From assembly GCA_041660305.1 (NCBI GenBank), contig JBAZWO010000002.1, forward strand, positions 4,739 to 68,738: a DNA stretch of 64,000 nt, in the 5' to 3' direction. The notes below the pieces were generated by a model that worked only from the letters and a program-made list of their open reading frames with translations, was not told where the DNA came from and ran no database searches. Below, in pieces: positions 7,320 through 61,099 of this stretch. This stretch comes from Patescibacteria group bacterium (GTDB lineage: Bacteria; Patescibacteriota; Patescibacteriia; UBA9570). Position 1 is the stretch's first letter; each line of letters opens with the position of its first letter. Made by a program: the position numbers and the translations under genes.

Positions 7320-7492
7320 CATCTCCCAGCCTCTTTCTCCTAACAACCTACCTCACCTCCCAGCCTCCTCTCCTCAAAGGAGAGGAGGAGTAATTCAAAA
7401 CACCCCTCTCCTGGAATAGAAAAGGGGAATTTTAATCAACATTAAACCCCCTTTCCCCTGTTTAGGGGAAAGGGGGTAGGGGGATAGAGGTA
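7320..7492. repeat. family A repeat cluster (CCTACCTCACC leader + pyrimidine/purine hairpins), 3 units
   Basis: Contains CCTACCTCACCTCCCAGCCTCCTCTCCTCAAAGGAGAGGAGGAG (7347-7390), a partial unit CCCCTCTCC..GGGG, and an inverted unit CCCCCTTTCCCCTGTTTAGGGGAAAGGGGGTAGGGGGATAGAGGTA (about 7447-7491). It lies between convergent pyrG and rpmA. Confidence 0.8.
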
Positions 7493-7494
7493 TT

Positions 7495-7767
7495 TTATTT
7501 AACGTTTACAAATGTTCTGGTAACTAATTTACCGGTAAAACTTTTTGCTTTACGAGTAGTGAATGATACTGCGCCGGCAACGGCAGCGTATAATGTATCA
7601 TCTTCACCACGATAAACATTTACACCGGGATGAAATTTTGTGCCACGTTGCCGAACAATAATATTGCCTGGTTTTACGGTTTCCCCACCATAACGTTTAA
7701 TTCCTAAACGTTGACCGGCCGAATCACGACCTAGGGCTGTAGAACCGCCTGCTTTTGTGTGTGCCAT
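7495..7767 (-). CDS. rpmA: 50S ribosomal protein L27
   Basis: [28 protein letters not shown] is the canonical L27 N-terminus; 90 aa. Confidence 0.95.
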
Positions 7768-7775
7768 AGAGCGTT

Positions 7776-7804
7776 AATTTATCAAGTCTTTATTGGTGTG
7801 TCAA
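7776..7804 (-). promoter_or_regulatory. sigma70-like promoter of rpmA (TTGACA-17-TAAATT)
   Basis: On the minus strand, -35 is at 7804-7799 and -10 at 7781-7776. Only 8 nt separate the -10 box from the ATG at 7767, and there is no SD. Confidence 0.55.
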
Positions 7805-7841
7805 GAGGAGGTTGCTACAGGGGTTGTGAAAAAACACTAAA

Positions 7842-58136: not shown

Positions 58137-58163
58137 ATTCACTATAGTAGCATAGTATCAATA

Positions 58164-58198
58164 TTGCTAACACCCGGGTTTATCCCGGTGTGTTAGCA
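58164..58198. repeat. family D hairpin
   Basis: TTGCTAACACCCGGG-TTTAT-CCCGGTGTGTTAGCAA. Its centre resembles 15231-15245 (CCGGTTTTATACCGG). Confidence 0.65.
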
Positions 58199-58314
58199 AA
58201 AATGGATGCTAAGAAAAATCATTCTGGATTATATGTTAAAATTATACTAGACTAGCTTAGTTAAAACTGCTAGTATGTAGCTAGTTAAATTAAACTAACT
58301 ATTATCATAAATTT

Positions 58315-59946
58315 ATGAAAAAAATATTTTCGTTTGTCTTATTTGCGGTATTGGGTGTATTTGGTTATGTCCAGGCCTCGCAAGCCGTTTCGGTAGAGCT
58401 TAATACAGCTACCAGTGTAACGGGGCTAGGTACCAGAGTAATTTCATTATATGTTAACGATACTAATTACGCGGTAGTCACTTCTGGTGATGTGTTAATT
58501 TATCAGTTATCTAACAGTGCCGCTCCGGTATTAGTTGGTTCTTATGCTACTCCTGGCACAGCTTATGATGTAACGGCCAGTGCTGATGGCCACTATCTTT
58601 ATGTAGCGGATGGTTCTACCATCAGTACTACGCAAACTTGCCGAGTTGTTTTGGGACGTAACATTTGTACTGATAACGCACCAACGGCCGCTGGCCATGC
58701 TTTAGTGTTAGATATTTCTACTATTTCCGCCCCAACATTAACGGCAGATTACAGTTATAATTTAGGTAATTTTCAAGCGGTAGAATTGGTAGGCACAACA
58801 CTATACGTTTCTGATATTGTGAACGGTATTCATGTAGTAGATGTAGCTACGCCTAGCGTGCCAAGCCAAGTTAATTTATTAACTACATATACTGGGGTAA
58901 TGGATTTAGTAAGCAGTGCCGGATATTTATATGCATTATCTGCTACTACGACCAGTGTACTAGTATTTAATATTAGTTCTGTTACAGCTCCTACCCAAGT
59001 TGGTAGCGGAGCGGCTTCGGTGTTAGCTAATCGGTTACGTATTGACGATGGCACGTTATATATTGCTGACGGTGAAAATGGTTTGGTGATTTATAATGTT
59101 AATAATCCTGCCACTCCAACACTAGTTGGCGTGTATAATTCAACTGGTTTGGCTCGTGGAGTTACATTTGCTAATGGTATTGGTTATTTGGCTGATAGTT
59201 ATGGTGGCGTAGTAGCCTTGAACATGAATAATGTTGGTAATGTTAGCGTGATAGCCACTTCTACAGCCACGGAATTAAATACAGCTAACGATGTTACATA
59301 TGTAGGTAAATATGCTTACGTATTAACTAATACAGCTTTAAATCAAGTATATTTGAACTATGATTTTACGGTAGACGGTTCAGCCAATGGAGAAAAGGGC
59401 GATGTTACAGTATATGAAAGCGGAGCTTATTGGTCTACCATTCATGCTTATACCAATACGGTTGGCGCCCAAGCTAAACTTGGCGATGTGAATAATGATG
59501 GAATTATGGAAATTGTTACAGCGCCAAAAGGCAAAATGAAACAGCCAAAAGTACAAGTATATAATGCTGTAACTGGTACAATGTTAAGTAGTAAAAAACT
59601 AGACAGCAGTGAGGATAAAACCCAATTTATTATTGGTGTAGGCGATTACTATAATCCGGTATCTAAAGCAGAAATTGTGGCCGGTAGATTAATGGCTAGC
59701 GGTGATAACACAGCTTTAATGTTAACGGCTTATTTTGTAAAAGCAGATAACAGTATTAAGAAAAAAACTACTGTTACGGAAAATCCTACAGCAGCGTTGT
59801 TTTCAGAAGAAGGTTATAAAATTAAAATTAAATCGGATAAATCTTATCCAATTGTAGTACAGGCTAAAGAAACCACCGATGTAAAATCTAAATATAAAGT
59901 GGTAAAAAATAGTGATGGTAGTTTCAGTTTTGTAAAGAAAAGCTAA
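58315..59946 (+). CDS. secreted LVIVD-repeat beta-propeller protein with FG-GAP-like C-terminal segment
   Basis: Signal peptide. Repeated units such as YLYVADG, GIHVVDVATPSVPS and GLVIYNVNNPATPTLVG (LVIVD type). GDVNNDGIMEIV is FG-GAP-like. Confidence 0.65.
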   Translation: MKKIFSFVLFAVLGVFGYVQASQAVSVELNTATSVTGLGTRVISLYVNDTNYAVVTSGDVLIYQLSNSAAPVLVGSYATPGTAYDVTASADGHYLYVADGSTISTTQTCRVVLGRNICTDNAPTAAGHALVLDISTISAPTLTADYSYNLGNFQAVELVGTTLYVSDIVNGIHVVDVATPSVPSQVNLLTTYTGVMDLVSSAGYLYALSATTTSVLVFNISSVTAPTQVGSGAASVLANRLRIDDGTLYIADGENGLVIYNVNNPATPTLVGVYNSTGLARGVTFANGIGYLADSYGGVVALNMNNVGNVSVIATSTATELNTANDVTYVGKYAYVLTNTALNQVYLNYDFTVDGSANGEKGDVTVYESGAYWSTIHAYTNTVGAQAKLGDVNNDGIMEIVTAPKGKMKQPKVQVYNAVTGTMLSSKKLDSSEDKTQFIIGVGDYYNPVSKAEIVAGRLMASGDNTALMLTAYFVKADNSIKKKTTVTENPTAALFSEEGYKIKIKSDKSYPIVVQAKETTDVKSKYKVVKNSDGSFSFVKKS

Positions 59947-60990
59947 GTGACTGCCGCTACTACATTACAACTGATTGAGCAATATTTGCAGGAGCAAAAA
60001 CAGCCCCCGTATCGTGTGAAACAGGTACGGGTGGCTTGGTTTAAGCAGCGCAACTGGGCAGAAGTTACTACTTTAGCTAAGCCATTGCGAGCTGATTTAG
60101 CCAAGCAATTTTCTTGGAGCTCGGTAACGGCTGGGCAACAAGTTACAGCTAGTGATGGTACGCGCAAAACGGTATTAATATTATCAGACAAGCTCTGTAT
60201 TGAAACGGTGTTAATGCCAAACGCGCGTGATAAATATACAGCCTGTATTTCTTCGCAAGTAGGTTGTGCCATGGGTTGCACATTTTGCGCCACTGGTACC
60301 ATGGGTTTAAAACGCAATTTAACGATTGATGAAATTGTGGATCAAGTACGCTATTGGCGAATGCAACAGTACGATGTATCGAATATTGTGATTATGGGCA
60401 TGGGTGAGCCATTAGCTAATTATGATAACATCAAAGCCGCATTAACTAGTTTTATTAGCGATTTAGAAATTGGTGCTACTAGAATAGTATTATCCAGCGT
60501 TGGTTTACCGATTGGGTTAGAGCGTTTATTGCAAGACGCGGATTTTCCAGCGGTGCGACTAGCCTTATCATTACACGCCGGTACCGATGCTACGCGGGCT
60601 AAAATTATTCCGGCGCACCGCGGTAATTCTATTGGGCAACTACATGCTTGGGCTAAAGTTTATTTACAACAAAAAGGCAATCGCCGGCATCATCTTACGT
60701 TAGAATATGTTCTGCTTCATAACATCAATGATACTGTTAATGAAGCTAAAATGTTAGGCAAACAATGGAGTGATATTGCGCACAAAATAAAATTAAATTT
60801 AATTCCTTGGAATACAACTAACCGGCAGTTTCAGGCTAGTACCACACGGCAAATTGAACAATTTCGTAATATCGTAGAGCACTATGGTATTCAAACCACC
60901 GTGCGCTATTCCAAGGGCACTGATATTGCCGCGGCTTGTGGGCAATTAATAACTACCTCATCCCTGCCCTCCGGGCATCCCTTCTCCTAA
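59947..60990 (+). CDS. rlmN: 23S rRNA/tRNA adenine-C2 methyltransferase (radical SAM)
   Basis: CISSQVGCAMGCTFCATG (CxxxCxxC), GMGEPLAN and IAAACGQL. GTG start at 59947. The last ~12 codons are encoded by a family A repeat. Confidence 0.92.
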   Translation: MTAATTLQLIEQYLQEQKQPPYRVKQVRVAWFKQRNWAEVTTLAKPLRADLAKQFSWSSVTAGQQVTASDGTRKTVLILSDKLCIETVLMPNARDKYTACISSQVGCAMGCTFCATGTMGLKRNLTIDEIVDQVRYWRMQQYDVSNIVIMGMGEPLANYDNIKAALTSFISDLEIGATRIVLSSVGLPIGLERLLQDADFPAVRLALSLHAGTDATRAKIIPAHRGNSIGQLHAWAKVYLQQKGNRRHHLTLEYVLLHNINDTVNEAKMLGKQWSDIAHKIKLNLIPWNTTNRQFQASTTRQIEQFRNIVEHYGIQTTVRYSKGTDIAAACGQLITTSSLPSGHPFS

Positions 60991-61099
60991 ACTTCCTACC
61001 TCTATCCCCGACCCTTTCCCCTAAACAGGGGAAAGGGAGTAATTCAATTAATTTTTCCCCCCTCTCCTATTAGGAGAGGGGGTTAGGGGGAGAGGTAGG
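60953..61099. repeat. family A repeat cluster (3 units) spanning the rlmN 3' end to rarA
   Basis: Three units: CTACCTCATCCCTGCCCTCCGGGCATCCCTTCTCC; CCTACCTCTATCCCCGACCCTTTCCCCTAAACAGGGGAAAGGG; and inverted CCCCCCTCTCCTATTAGGAGAGGGGGTTAGGGGGAGAGGTAGG. Confidence 0.85.

What the first reader, a model, noticed from the sequence alone, without database searches (positions are those of the whole stretch)
7320..61099. Family A: dispersed 'CCTACCTCACC leader + polypyrimidine/polypurine hairpin' elements with compensatory stem variation
**Distribution.** At least 12 units occur at 7 loci: 7320-7492, 21460-21563, 30358-30400, 32497-32540, 35610-35725, 37381-37500 and 60953-61099.

**Architecture.** Each unit has a ~15-20-nt leader (CCTACCTCACCYCC, with variants CCTACCTCTATCCCC and GACCTCATCCCCC) followed by a hairpin whose 5' arm is all pyrimidine and whose 3' arm is all purine.

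**Stem variation.** Stems differ between copies but always stay complementary:
- CTCCTCTCCTC / GAGGAGAGGAG
- CCCCTCTCCT / AGGAGAGGGG
- CCCTTTCCCCT / AGGGGAAAGGG
- CCCCCTCTTCCCCT / AGGGAAGAGGGGG
- CCCCCTTCTCCT / AGGAGAAGGGGG

This is covariation that argues for selection on structure. Three copies (7347, 32497, and 37500 inverted) are nearly identical over about 44 nt.

**Position and orientation.** Units sit in both orientations, often paired head-to-head, mostly right after stop codons.

**rRNA and SD mimicry.** The leader CCTCACCTCC resembles the canonical 16S rRNA 3' tail (..GATCACCTCCTTA), so its complement is a strong SD. The inverted copy at 37455-37500 puts GGGAGGTGAGG 11 nt upstream of the truB ATG, in a genome whose native genes otherwise lack SDs.

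**Possible roles.** U-tract-less terminators or mRNA stabilisers, anti-SD/SD mimics, or a mobile REP-like family.
Basis: seen in the sequence. Interest (0 to 1): 0.62.

Follow-up and report, generated by a model that had tools for sequence, protein, structure and literature searches.

The report
Triplex-motif DNA repeats in CPR bacterium
The dispersed "leader + hairpin" elements are real, but they are a new, very dense example of a known bacterial repeat class (BoxC / PIT / "intrastrand triplex motif"), in which the so-called leader is a third DNA segment that mirrors the hairpin stem, not an rRNA mimic or an RNA terminator.

Summary
The 64 kb window, from an uncultured CPR/Patescibacteria genome, holds 10 intact units plus about 5 composite or truncated ones at the 7 named loci. 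About 0.1 such hairpins are expected by chance.

The decisive result is that each unit has three segments, not two. Read on the G-rich strand, they are a pyrimidine arm, a Watson-Crick purine arm and, after a 2-3 nt loop, a G-rich third segment.

- **Mirror rule:** the third segment mirrors the purine arm antiparallel under the purine-motif triplex code. Stem G takes G in 156/161 cases. Stem A takes A (32) or T (34), never G or C.
- **Covariation:** it tracks each of 8 distinct stems. Cognate fit is 0.97 against 0.81 for non-cognate pairings, and 0 of 20,000 permutations reached the observed value.
- **Known class:** this is the architecture, core sequence (GGAGAGGG(G)-TTA-GGG(G)TGAGG) and inverted-pair layout of E. 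coli BoxC/PIT/TMECO repeats (Holder 2015).
- **Distribution:** near-identical units occur in cyanobacterial plasmids, a Cupriavidus replicon filed as a plasmid, and a phage. Sister CPR genomes (78-84% GyrB identity) have none.

The terminator and anti-SD/SD readings are not supported. Verdict: a new member of a known kind, with moderate interest.

The parts
7350..7388 (-). Intact unit; the G-rich strand is the - strand. Third segment 7350-7360, loop2 7361-7363, arms 7364-7374 / 7378-7388. It is the left half of an inverted pair lying between pyrG (+) and rpmA (-).
   Evidence: 11/11 triads and an 11-bp perfect stem. Gene context.
7447..7491 (+). Intact unit; G-rich strand +. Arms 7447-7459 / 7464-7476, loop2 TA, third segment 7479-7491 (GGGGGATAGAGGT). 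It is the right half of the pair and ends 4 nt before the rpmA stop codon.
   Evidence: 12/13 triads and a 13-bp stem.
7320..7346 (+). Truncated remnant: part of a leader plus a pyrimidine arm (7330-7341, CCTCTTTCTCCT) plus loop, with no purine arm. It directly abuts the next full unit.
7403..7430 (.). Degenerate hairpin (CCCCTCTCCT...AAAAGGGGA) inside the spacer of the pair, with no third segment. It looks like a decayed copy.
21463..21563 (+). Composite locus between atpG and atpD, inside the atp operon. The outer unit's pyrimidine arm (21463-21473) is perfectly complementary to the purine arm at 21539-21549, which is followed by TTA and a truncated third segment (GGGGG...). About 65 nt lie in its loop; they contain a second purine arm (21504-21514), then TA, then an A-type third segment GGGAGGTGAGGTAGG.
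   Evidence: Operon context.
30361..30397 (-). Intact solo unit 7 nt after the pheT stop codon and 62 nt before the gyrB start. Third segment 30361-30370, arms 30374-30383 / 30388-30397.
   Evidence: 10/10 triads. The orthologous spacers in relatives are 0-94 nt and empty.
32500..32538 (-). Intact solo unit just after the gyrB stop codon. A separate classic hairpin+T-run terminator follows at about 32546-32576.
   Evidence: 11/11 triads. Sequence.
35613..35658 (-). Intact unit, left half of an inverted pair. Third segment 35613-35624, arms 35628-35639 / 35647-35658.
   Evidence: 11/12 triads. The pair folds as a composite palindrome, z = -10.7.
35684..35724 (+). Intact unit, right half of the pair. 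Arms 35684-35695 / 35698-35709, loop2 TTA, third segment 35713-35724. It abuts the stop codon of the CAP-domain gene (-).
   Evidence: 12/12 triads.
37385..37430 (-). Intact unit with a 12-nt mini-hairpin (GCCCTACGGGCA on the + strand, 37396-37407) inserted in loop2. Third segment 37385-37395, arms 37408-37418 / 37420-37430. It lies in the divergent region between a 99-aa ORF (-) and truB (+).
   Evidence: 10/11 triads when loop2 is allowed to be 12 nt.
37460..37498 (+). Intact unit, right half of the pair. Arms 37460-37470 / 37474-37484, loop2 CTG, third segment 37488-37498 (GGAGGTGAGGT), ending 8 nt before the truB ATG.
   Evidence: 11/11 triads. SD spacing.
60953..60992 (+). Truncated unit: leader CTACCTCATCCC, mini-hairpin GCCCTCCGGGC, pyrimidine arm 60978-60988 and loop AAAC, with no purine arm. 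It overlaps the last codons of the radical-SAM gene and abuts the next unit.
60998..61037 (-). Intact unit. Third segment 60998-61008, arms 61012-61022 / 61027-61037.
   Evidence: 10/11 triads.
61058..61096 (+). Intact unit. Arms 61058-61068 / 61072-61082, loop2 TTA, third segment 61086-61096, ending 13 nt before the ATG of the MgsA/RarA-type ATPase gene.
   Evidence: 11/11 triads. Gene identity.

Best explanation
Family A is a lineage-specific expansion of G/C-rich 'intrastrand triplex motif' DNA repeats in a CPR/Patescibacteria genome. This class has been described as BoxC, PIT elements and TMECO in E. coli, and is abundant in cyanobacteria.

**Anatomy.** Each unit has three consecutive segments on the G-rich strand:
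- a pyrimidine arm;
- its Watson-Crick purine arm, after a 1-7 nt loop;
- a G-rich third segment, after a 2-3 nt loop (often TTA), that is the antiparallel mirror of the purine arm.

When that strand is single-stranded (replication, transcription bubble, repair), the third segment can fold back into the major groove of the hairpin. It would form G*G.C, A*A.T and T*A.T triads, giving a class II purine-motif triplex. Units occur alone or as inverted pairs with third segments outside and hairpins inside, which together form a 110-150 bp composite palindrome.

**Shown here.** The three-way covariation, the copy number, the intergenic spread in every gene context, the identity of architecture, core sequence and pair layout with E. 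coli copies, and the absence from sister species.

**Inferred.**
- The fold itself is what is conserved, and it acts at the DNA level.
- The elements multiply as selfish, REP/MITE-like DNA by a still unknown copying route that depends on that fold.
- Their main effect on the host is local replication or repair trouble and genome instability, not gene regulation.
For: **Three-segment rule.**
- The third segment fits its own stem at 10/11 to 12/12 positions in all 10 intact units, and on one side only.
- Mean cognate fit is 0.966 against 0.805 for non-cognate stem/third combinations. None of 20,000 random reassignments reached the observed mean, and every unit's own partner is the best or tied-best match.
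- Triad table over 22 distinct units from the window and other organisms: stem G takes G 156/161; stem A takes A 32 or T 34, never G or C. This is the purine-motif code as stated in PMC4666352.
- Stems are 100% Watson-Crick with no G.T pairs.

**Match to the known class.**
- The published pattern is CCCTCNCCC-N3-6-GGGNGAGGG-N3-GGGNGAGGG with second loop TTA or CCG. The elements are intergenic, show no strand bias, form inverted pairs, form a triplex in vitro by CD/NMR, and showed no promoter or terminator activity.
- The reconstructed E. coli type A sequence is exact in E. coli, present in 5414 of 5426 genomes at a median of 18 copies.
- An E. coli locus shows the same inverted-pair layout and the core GGAGAGGG-TTA-GGGTGAGG.

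**Distribution.**
- The same units occur in cyanobacterial plasmids, in a Cupriavidus replicon filed as a plasmid, in phage Rctr41k and in metagenome contigs, and all obey the rule.
- Relatives have none: 80 GTDB loci totalling 1.24 Mb contain no Family A unit, and neither do about 90 kb from relatives at 78-84% GyrB identity, one of them from the same sample, with conserved atp-pheST-gyrB synteny and empty spacers.

**Signs of multiplication.** Near-identical 44-nt copies at unlinked loci, nested and truncated copies, and short-read contigs that break at the units.
Against: - No triplex was demonstrated for these sequences. Even for E. coli TMECO, in vivo DMS footprinting did not detect a stable triplex (PMC4666352).
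- Copies within a subfamily are related by descent, so the number of independent covariation events is about 5-8 stem types, not 10.
- The literal E. coli TMECO consensus is not matched. Stems here are 10-13 nt and shifted in register, so this is a sister subfamily rather than TMECO proper.
- No mobilising gene was found in the window, and no occupied-versus-empty site pair could be aligned at nucleotide level, so mobility is inferred.
- All three solo or composite loci have the C-rich strand in the mRNA sense just after a stop codon. This is weak (3 of 3) but compatible with some RNA-level effect.
- Only 64 kb of the genome was available.
Confidence: 0.8

Rival explanations
1. RNA-level hairpins. 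Transcribed units would act as U-tract-less terminators or 3'-end stabilisers that protect upstream mRNAs, as REP hairpins do in E. coli.
For: - The hairpins are very stable, with 10-13 G/C-rich pairs.
- Several units begin within a few nt of a stop codon.
- The three solo or composite loci are all in 'sense' orientation after a gene.
Against: - One locus lies between atpG and atpD inside an operon, and one lies between divergent gene starts.
- The 3' flank is A-rich, not T-rich.
- A canonical terminator follows the unit after gyrB.
- No G.U-type pairs occur in about 115 stem bp.
- A hairpin-only role does not explain why the third segment covaries with the stem. The code used (A or T opposite A) fits the purine motif, which cannot form in RNA according to PMC4666352.
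- E. coli members have no terminator or promoter activity.
- Sister species with the same gene order lack the units.
Confidence: 0.1
2. Anti-SD/SD mimicry. The leader would imitate the 16S rRNA 3' tail, and its complement would provide Shine-Dalgarno sites for neighbouring genes.
For: - One subfamily contains CACCTCC, a 7-nt match to the canonical anti-SD.
- Its complement, GGAGGTGAGG, lies upstream of truB.
Against: - CACCTCC appears only where the stem contains GGAGG, as the mirror rule requires. Other subfamilies and copies in other phyla read CCTCACCCC, CCTCTATCCCC or CCTCATCCCC.
- 57 of 59 genes have no SD core. In the two element-adjacent cases the core ends 14 nt from the ATG.
- Most units are not next to a start codon.
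- The organism's own 16S 3' end could not be checked, because the window contains no rRNA gene.
Confidence: 0.03
3. An ordinary MITE or REPIN. The inverted pair would be the mobile unit, mobilised in trans by a transposase (DDE type recognising the terminal inverted repeats, or a RAYT/IS200-type HUH enzyme recognising a DNA hairpin plus a 5' guide), with triplex compatibility incidental.
For: - Four loci are inverted pairs of 116-147 bp with complementary outer ends.
- No consistent target-site duplication is seen, as expected for HUH enzymes.
- The stems are perfect DNA-level palindromes.
- Copies are nested or truncated.
- The burst is lineage-specific.
- Copies occur on plasmids, in a phage and inside genes elsewhere.
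Against: - Solo units are complete and common.
- Mirror (not inverted or direct) symmetry between the third segment and the stem, kept across at least 5 stem types, is not needed by any known transposase. Copying cannot generate it either.
- No transposase or RAYT gene is present in the window.
- Holder et al. reported no association of the E. coli motif with known mobile elements.
- This rival overlaps with the best explanation. It differs only in claiming that a dedicated transposase exists and that the triplex is irrelevant.
Confidence: 0.15
4. G-quadruplex (or i-motif) elements. The G-runs of the purine arm and third segment would fold into a G4 rather than a triplex.
For: The G-rich strand carries 3-4 runs of at least 2-5 G, for example AGGAGAGGGGTTAGGGGTGAGGTAGG.
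Against: - A G4 needs neither the complementary pyrimidine arm nor position-by-position mirroring of the A positions, yet both are strictly kept.
- For the E. coli homologue, NMR showed 18 imino signals consistent with a triplex rather than a G4.
Confidence: 0.04

Closest known systems
E. coli BoxC repeats = PIT (potential intrastrand triplex) elements (Hoyne/Maher 2000) = TMECO (Holder et al. 2015, PMC4666352)
   Same: - The order of the three segments is the same: C-rich arm, G-rich Watson-Crick arm, short second loop (TTA in many copies), then a G-rich mirror segment.
- The core is nearly identical: GGAGAGGG-TTA-GGGTGAGG in E. coli against GGAGAGGGG-TTA-GGGGTGAGG here.
- Both are intergenic with no strand bias.
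- Both form inverted pairs with third segments outside and a spacer of about 30-50 nt.

   Different: - Stems are 10-13 nt rather than 9, and the literal TMECO consensus is not matched.
- At least five co-resident stem subfamilies occur here, against one highly uniform consensus in E. coli.
- Density is about 1 unit per 4-6 kb in this window, against about 18-23 per E. coli genome (~5 Mb).
- The host is an AT-rich (38% GC), SD-less CPR bacterium.
- Some units carry a mini-hairpin in the second loop.
[quoted passage not shown]
   Same: - The unit sequence is near-identical (CCTCACCCC-TAG/CAA-CCCCTCTCC...GGAGAGGGG) on Pseudanabaena, Stanieria, Leptolyngbya, Calothrix, Synechocystis and Nostoc plasmids.
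- Inverted pairs occur there too.
- The triad rule is obeyed.

   Different: - The host phylum differs.
- The local copies usually carry an extended outer end (CCTAC...).
- The cyanobacterial copies were found here by BLAST only. The paper's text does not give their consensus, so equivalence with the ITxF entries is inferred.
REP / REPIN elements mobilised by RAYT transposases
   Same: - Both are short, high-copy extragenic palindromes.
- Both occur as solos and inverted doublets of about 110-150 bp.
- Neither shows target duplications.
- Both show lineage-specific abundance.

   Different: - There is no GTAG or CGTC tag adjacent to the hairpin foot.
- Stems are strictly homopyrimidine/homopurine.
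- A mirror third segment is present.
- No RAYT gene was seen in the 64 kb available.
Intrinsic (Rho-independent) terminators
   Same: Both have a G/C-rich hairpin that often lies just downstream of a stop codon.
   Different: - There is no T-run; the 3' flank is A-rich.
- Units are also found inside an operon and between divergent gene starts.
- A genuine terminator sits next to one unit.

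Membership tests
Intrastrand triplex motif repeats, class II purine motif (PIT/BoxC-like, ITxF definition) | Three consecutive blocks on one strand: a pyrimidine-rich block, a purine-rich Watson-Crick partner, then a reverse-Hoogsteen block. Stems are 6-15 nt with at most 1 mismatch, and loops are 1-6 nt. | tested here: met
   9 of 10 intact units meet it outright. Stems are 10-13 nt, loop1 is 1-7 nt, loop2 is 2-3 nt, and there are 0-1 incompatible triads. The tenth has a 12-nt structured second loop.
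Intrastrand triplex motif repeats, class II purine motif (PIT/BoxC-like, ITxF definition) | The third block is antiparallel to the purine block and uses G*G.C, A*A.T or T*A.T triads. | tested here: met
   Stem G takes G 156/161. Stem A takes A 32 or T 34, and G or C 0. Cognate fit exceeds non-cognate fit, with 0 of 20,000 permutations reaching the observed value.
Intrastrand triplex motif repeats, class II purine motif (PIT/BoxC-like, ITxF definition) | The G-rich strand actually folds into a triplex (CD, NMR or melting). | not testable with these tools
   Shown in vitro only for E. coli TMECO oligonucleotides, and not detected in vivo (PMC4666352).
TMECO / BoxC sensu stricto (E. coli) | Literal consensus 5'-CCCTCNCCC N3-6 GGGNGAGGG N3 GGGNGAGGG-3' with 9-nt stems. 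| tested here: not met
   The units read, for example, CCCCTCTCCT-GATT-AGGAGAGGGG-TTA-GGGGTGAGGT. The core and loop are the same, but the register and length differ. A direct BLAST of a unit against E. coli genomes gave only marginal hits. I therefore treat it as a sister subfamily, not TMECO proper.
TMECO / BoxC sensu stricto (E. coli) | Intergenic, no strand bias, frequent inverted pairs. | tested here: met
   All units are intergenic, except that one truncated unit overlaps the last codons of a gene. The G-rich strand is + in 5 and - in 5 intact units. There are 4 inverted pairs, and the E. coli pair L225 has the same layout.
REP / REPIN (RAYT-associated) | A conserved GTAG or CGTC tetranucleotide directly at one end of the palindrome. 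| tested here: not met
   GTAG occurs within GGTGAGGTAGG in most local copies, but 10-14 nt from the hairpin foot. It is absent from the Pseudanabaena and Cupriavidus copies. Definition taken from PMC3733652.
REP / REPIN (RAYT-associated) | A cognate RAYT (Y1 HUH transposase) gene in the genome, typically flanked by the repeats. | not testable with these tools
   No such gene is among the genes of the 64 kb window.
MITE (DDE-transposase dependent) | Terminal inverted repeats plus a fixed-length target-site duplication. | tested here: inconclusive
   Pairs do have complementary outer ends. No consistent duplication flanks them: TA is possible at 2 of 4 pairs but is expected by chance in AT-rich flanks.
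Intrinsic terminator | A G/C-rich hairpin immediately followed by a T/U-run at the end of a transcription unit. | tested here: not met
   The 3' flanks are AG/AA-rich. Units also occur inside the atp operon and between divergent gene starts.
Any Rfam RNA family | A match at or above the family's gathering score. | tested here: not met
   Only the tRNA-Asp passes in the window. At E<=1, only generic long-hairpin hits to eukaryotic miRNA models appear, far below their thresholds.

The most novel reading that the evidence does not exclude
The strict three-way covariation across several co-resident subfamilies and across phyla would be the first comparative, covariation-type evidence that an intrastrand DNA triplex is selected in vivo. 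In this reading the fold is the recognition or propagation structure of a self-spreading element that needs no element-encoded transposase. It could spread, for example, through template switching or repair at triplex-stalled forks, or by hijacking a host ssDNA enzyme. That would explain how it invaded a streamlined CPR genome, reached the highest density yet seen, and moved between phyla via phages and plasmids.
Probability: 0.2. Interest if true: 0.7.

Novelty: new member of a known kind. Interest (0 to 1): 0.38.

Why it matters
BoxC/PIT/triplex-motif repeats have been known for about 30 years, but neither their function nor their mode of spread has been established. Direct in vivo evidence for the triplex is also lacking.

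This locus adds three things:
- **A new host.** The class occurs in the Candidate Phyla Radiation, in a small, SD-less, AT-rich genome. Its local density (about 1 unit per 4-6 kb) is far above the published E. coli or Microcystis figures.
- **A recent origin.** It arrived or expanded recently, since sister species with the same gene order have none.
- **A natural experiment.** Several diverged subfamilies coexist, and in each the third segment tracks its own stem. That argues the triplex-forming capacity itself is under constraint.

For annotation, it is a warning not to call such elements terminators, sRNAs or SD/anti-SD mimics. It also explains why short-read assemblies of this organism fragment at these sites.

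Tried and rejected
- **Rfam.** Neither the gathering thresholds nor E<=1 gave a real family.
- **Literature search by sequence string.** Only irrelevant primer hits.
- **REP/REPIN papers.** The GTAG/CGTC-tagged families do not fit. Elhai 2008 on cyanobacterial small repeats is not held in the library.
- **14-base leader pattern on the viral collection.** Mostly chance hits; only 3 of about 120 loci were true units.
- **Metagenome scan with a subfamily-specific pattern.** It did not retrieve the window's own genome, only 6 loci from other organisms. A genome-wide census and an orientation test were therefore not possible.
- **Occupied versus empty site test.** The nearest relatives (78-84% GyrB identity) keep the synteny, but their spacers are too diverged to align. 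The result is only 'absent', not an exact empty site.
- **Strain comparison.** Logan and ENA contigs of the same organism are identical and stop inside the units, so no polymorphism could be seen.
- **Target-site duplications.** None is consistent.
- **Direct BLAST of a unit against E. coli genomes.** Marginal only. The link was made through the published consensus and a retrieved E. coli locus instead.
- **Covariance model.** Not built, because a CM cannot represent the parallel or mirror third-strand relation. A custom triad test was used instead.
- **Transposase search.** Nothing in the window.

Full report
**1. What is in the sequence**

A scan for perfect hairpins whose 5' arm is all pyrimidine finds ten, with stems of 10-13 bp. 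All ten lie in those loci and none lies elsewhere in the window. First-order Markov simulations of the window give on average 0.115 such hairpins even at a laxer 8-bp threshold. The 11-mer CCTACCTCACC with up to 2 mismatches occurs 17 times against 6.45 expected.

Besides the ten intact units there are four further items:
- a composite, nested locus at 21463-21563;
- truncated remnants at 7320-7346 and 60953-60992 (leader, pyrimidine arm and loop, with no purine arm, abutting a complete unit);
- a decayed hairpin at 7403-7430.

The loci are identical in independent ENA contigs. Short-read assemblies of the same organism from two other samples end exactly inside the units, as expected for a high-copy repeat.

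**2. Host and context**

The window comes from an uncultured Patescibacteria (CPR) genome. An ENA contig of sample ERZ27249449 carries the same genes. The exact GyrB is also recorded on a 304 kb contig named 'Patescibacteria group bacterium'. The nearest GTDB representatives reach only 67-69% GyrB identity. GC content is about 38%.

Gene contexts of the seven loci:
- 7320-7492: between convergent pyrG and rpmA.
- 21460-21563: between atpG and atpD, inside the ATP synthase operon.
- 30361-30397: after pheT and before gyrB.
- 32500-32538: after gyrB, followed by a separate classic hairpin+T-run terminator at about 32546-32576.
- 35613-35724: between the stop codon of a CAP-domain gene and the start of a transaldolase gene.
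- 37385-37498: between divergently oriented gene starts (a 99-aa ORF and truB).
- 60953-61096: between a radical-SAM gene and a MgsA/RarA-type ATPase gene.

The elements therefore occupy every kind of intergenic space. No transposase-like gene is present in the window.

**3. The key finding: three segments, not two**

A literature search led to Holder et al. 2015 (PMC4666352). That paper describes abundant bacterial 'intrastrand triplex motifs'. The E. coli form, TMECO, was earlier called BoxC and PIT elements. It reads 5'-CCCTCNCCC-N3-6-GGGNGAGGG-N3-GGGNGAGGG-3' with the second loop TTA or CCG.

Read on the G-rich strand, a Family A unit has the same arrangement, for example CCCCTCTCCT-gatt-AGGAGAGGGG-TTA-GGGGTGAGGT.

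I tested the prediction that the third segment is an antiparallel mirror of the purine arm under the purine-motif code (G*G.C, A*A.T, T*A.T):
- All ten intact units fit over the full stem length, at 10/11 to 12/12. The fit is on one side only and uses a 2-3 nt second loop. One unit instead has a 12-nt mini-hairpin inserted in that loop.
- The fit is specific. The mean cognate fit is 0.966 against 0.805 for non-cognate stem/third combinations. None of 20,000 random reassignments reached the observed mean. In the score matrix each unit's own partner is the best or tied-best.
- Examples of the covariation are AGGAGAGGAGG with GGAGGTGAGGT, AGGGGAAAGGGGG with GGGGGATAGAGGT, and AGGAGAAGGGGG with GGGGGATGAGGT.
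- Pooled over 22 distinct units from the window and from other organisms, a stem G faces G in 156 of 161 cases. A stem A faces A (32) or T (34), and never G or C.

The even A/T split is what reverse-Hoogsteen pairing on the G-rich DNA strand allows. It would put mismatches at half of the A.T positions in a pyrimidine-motif triplex on the C-rich strand or in its RNA. Mirror symmetry cannot be produced by copying, which yields direct or inverted repeats. Its maintenance across at least five stem types therefore points to a structural constraint.

The stems themselves contain only Watson-Crick pairs, with no G.T pair in about 115 bp. This also fits a DNA-level palindrome better than an RNA helix.

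**4. Link to the known class**

- Reverting the four G-to-C control mutations quoted in the paper gives CCCTCGCCCCTTTGGGGAGAGGGTTAGGGTGAGGGG. That sequence occurs exactly in E. coli, in 5414 of 5426 complete genomes, at a median of 18 copies.
- One retrieved E. coli locus is an inverted pair: CCCTCACCCC-GA-CCCTCTCCC-aca-GGGAGAGGG, a 47-nt spacer, then CCCCTCGCCCC-ttt-GGGGAGAGGG-TTA-GGGTGAGGGG.
- That is the layout of the four pairs in the window: third segments outside, hairpins inside, 116-147 bp overall. Such a pair folds as a composite palindrome, z = -10.7.
- The published properties also match. The E. coli elements are always intergenic, show no strand bias and often form inverted pairs. 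Here the G-rich strand is + in 5 intact units and - in 5.
- The literal 9-nt TMECO consensus is not met, and a direct BLAST of a unit against E. coli is marginal. I therefore file Family A under the broader class (G/C-rich class II intrastrand triplex repeats, BoxC/PIT-like) and not as TMECO proper.

**5. Distribution**

- Near-identical units occur on plasmids of Pseudanabaena (an inverted pair), Stanieria (inside the annotated cas10d gene), Leptolyngbya, Calothrix, Synechocystis, Gloeothece, Oscillatoria and Nostoc.
- They also occur in a 2.5 Mb Cupriavidus replicon (68% GC), in phage Rctr41k, in IMG/VR contigs and in JGI metagenome contigs.
- One metagenome contig embeds the unit in a 225-bp tandem satellite.
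- All of these copies obey the triad rule.

By contrast, 80 loci (1.24 Mb) from other Patescibacteria and more distant bacteria contain no Family A unit. Two of them hold triplex-type units of a different sequence. About 90 kb from the closest relatives available (78-84% GyrB identity, one from the same sample) contain none, although atp-pheS-pheT-gyrB synteny is kept. Their pheT-gyrB spacer is 0-94 nt and holds no unit.

The family therefore expanded recently in this lineage. Taken together with the near-identical dispersed copies, the nested and truncated copies, and the presence on plasmids, in a phage and inside genes elsewhere, this indicates multiplication and horizontal movement. I could not show an exact occupied/empty site pair or a mobilising enzyme.

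**6.

*SD/anti-SD mimicry.* The genome indeed lacks SD sequences: 57 of 59 genes have no SD core in the 20 nt upstream. That makes an SD role less likely, not more. The only two SD-like cores belong to units abutting start codons, and they end 14 nt from the ATG. The CACCTCC string is confined to the subfamily whose stem contains GGAGG, where the mirror rule dictates it.

*Terminator or stabiliser.* Several observations argue against this as the primary role:
- the position inside the atp operon and the position between divergent gene starts;
- the A-rich 3' flanks;
- the adjacent genuine terminator after gyrB;
- the absence of G.U pairs;
- the DNA-only triplex code;
- the absence of the elements from sister species;
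- the reported lack of promoter or terminator activity of E. coli PIT elements.

A secondary RNA-hairpin effect cannot be excluded. The three solo or composite loci are all in sense orientation after a gene, but n = 3.

**7. Mechanism, with shown and inferred steps**

*Shown.* The three-segment architecture with Watson-Crick plus reverse-Hoogsteen-compatible covariation. The copy number and placement. The identity of architecture, core sequence and pair layout with E. coli BoxC/TMECO. The lineage-specific presence.

*Taken from the literature.* The E. coli homologue forms a very stable triplex as an isolated strand (Tm 70-82 deg C). It is duplex when the complement is present. It was not detected as a triplex in vivo by DMS. 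It is associated with elevated local rearrangement.

*Inferred.*
- The G-rich strand folds transiently when single-stranded.
- This fold is what is conserved.
- The elements multiply as selfish DNA by a route that depends on it.
- The host consequences are mainly replication or repair interference and local instability. The truncated and nested copies in this window are in line with that.

**8. Verdict**

It is wrong on the specific RNA and rRNA-mimicry roles.

The elements are a new member of a known kind. The new points are the CPR host, the very high local density, the recent expansion, and the clean multi-subfamily covariation of the third segment.

Interest is moderate at 0.38. The mode of spread and the in vivo relevance of the triplex remain open questions, and this genome could help address them.

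Noticed in passing
window 8871-8894, 13709-13732, 29637-29661, 32205-32249, 37915-37938: A second, unrelated family of perfect 24-26 nt palindromes (AGAGACG-N-CGTCTCT, e.g. TAGAGACGCGCTGCAGCGCGTCTCTA) lies mostly inside conserved ORFs (an aminoacyl-tRNA synthetase gene, pheT, gyrB, truB). The GyrB copy lies in a hypervariable, length-variable linker (residues 582-597) that is absent or different in homologues, which suggests in-frame insertions into tolerant loops.
   Followed up: partly
window, upstream of all 59 gene starts: The genome is essentially free of Shine-Dalgarno sequences. 57 of 59 genes have no GGAG, GAGG or AGGA core in the 20 nt upstream, which is below the 6% background frequency.
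   Followed up: yes
window 32688-34661 (- strand): The gene for a MopE-like copper-binding protein has about 52% GC in a 38% GC genome (composition peak at 32-36 kb). It may have been acquired horizontally.
   Followed up: no
window 32546-32576: A classic bidirectional-looking intrinsic terminator (AAAAAATCCACC-ttaatttt-GGTGGGTTTTTT) lies between convergent gyrB and the MopE-like gene. This shows the organism has canonical terminators in addition to the repeats.
   Followed up: no
window 37396-37407 and 60965-60977: Two units carry a 12-13 nt mini-hairpin (GCCC-TAC/TCC-GGGC) inserted in the second loop, between the third segment and the hairpin. This is a sub-variant of the family.
   Followed up: partly
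L219 1-930 (JGI contig Ga0307958_1000106); also L222-L224: In an unrelated metagenome organism (46% GC), the same unit (CTACCTCACCTCCCGG-CCTCCTCTCCT-ca-AGGAGAGGAGG) is embedded in a tandem satellite with a period of about 225 bp and at least 4 copies.
   Followed up: partly
L211 1515-1537 (Stanieria plasmid NC_019765.1); L089 1835-1873; L210/L119 (phage Rctr41k): Units of the family lie inside an annotated cas10d coding sequence and possibly inside an ORF of an IMG/VR contig. Another lies between a phage capsid/protease gene and the next gene, so the family also occurs in genes and in phage genomes.
   Followed up: partly
L009 157-260 and L029 1820-1840, 13266-13286 (MAGs titled 'uncultured Gammaproteobacteria', retrieved among the Patescibacteria-type GyrB relatives): Triplex-type units of different sequence (AAGGGGGAG-tta-GAGGGGGTT; GGGAGAGGG flanked on both sides by GGGTGAGGG) occur in two of the 80 relatives' loci. 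The class may therefore be sporadically present in other CPR lineages.
   Followed up: partly
L082 end, L086 end, L088 end (Logan short-read contigs): Independent short-read assemblies of this organism terminate exactly within the pyrimidine arm of a unit. The repeats are a practical cause of assembly fragmentation.
   Followed up: yes
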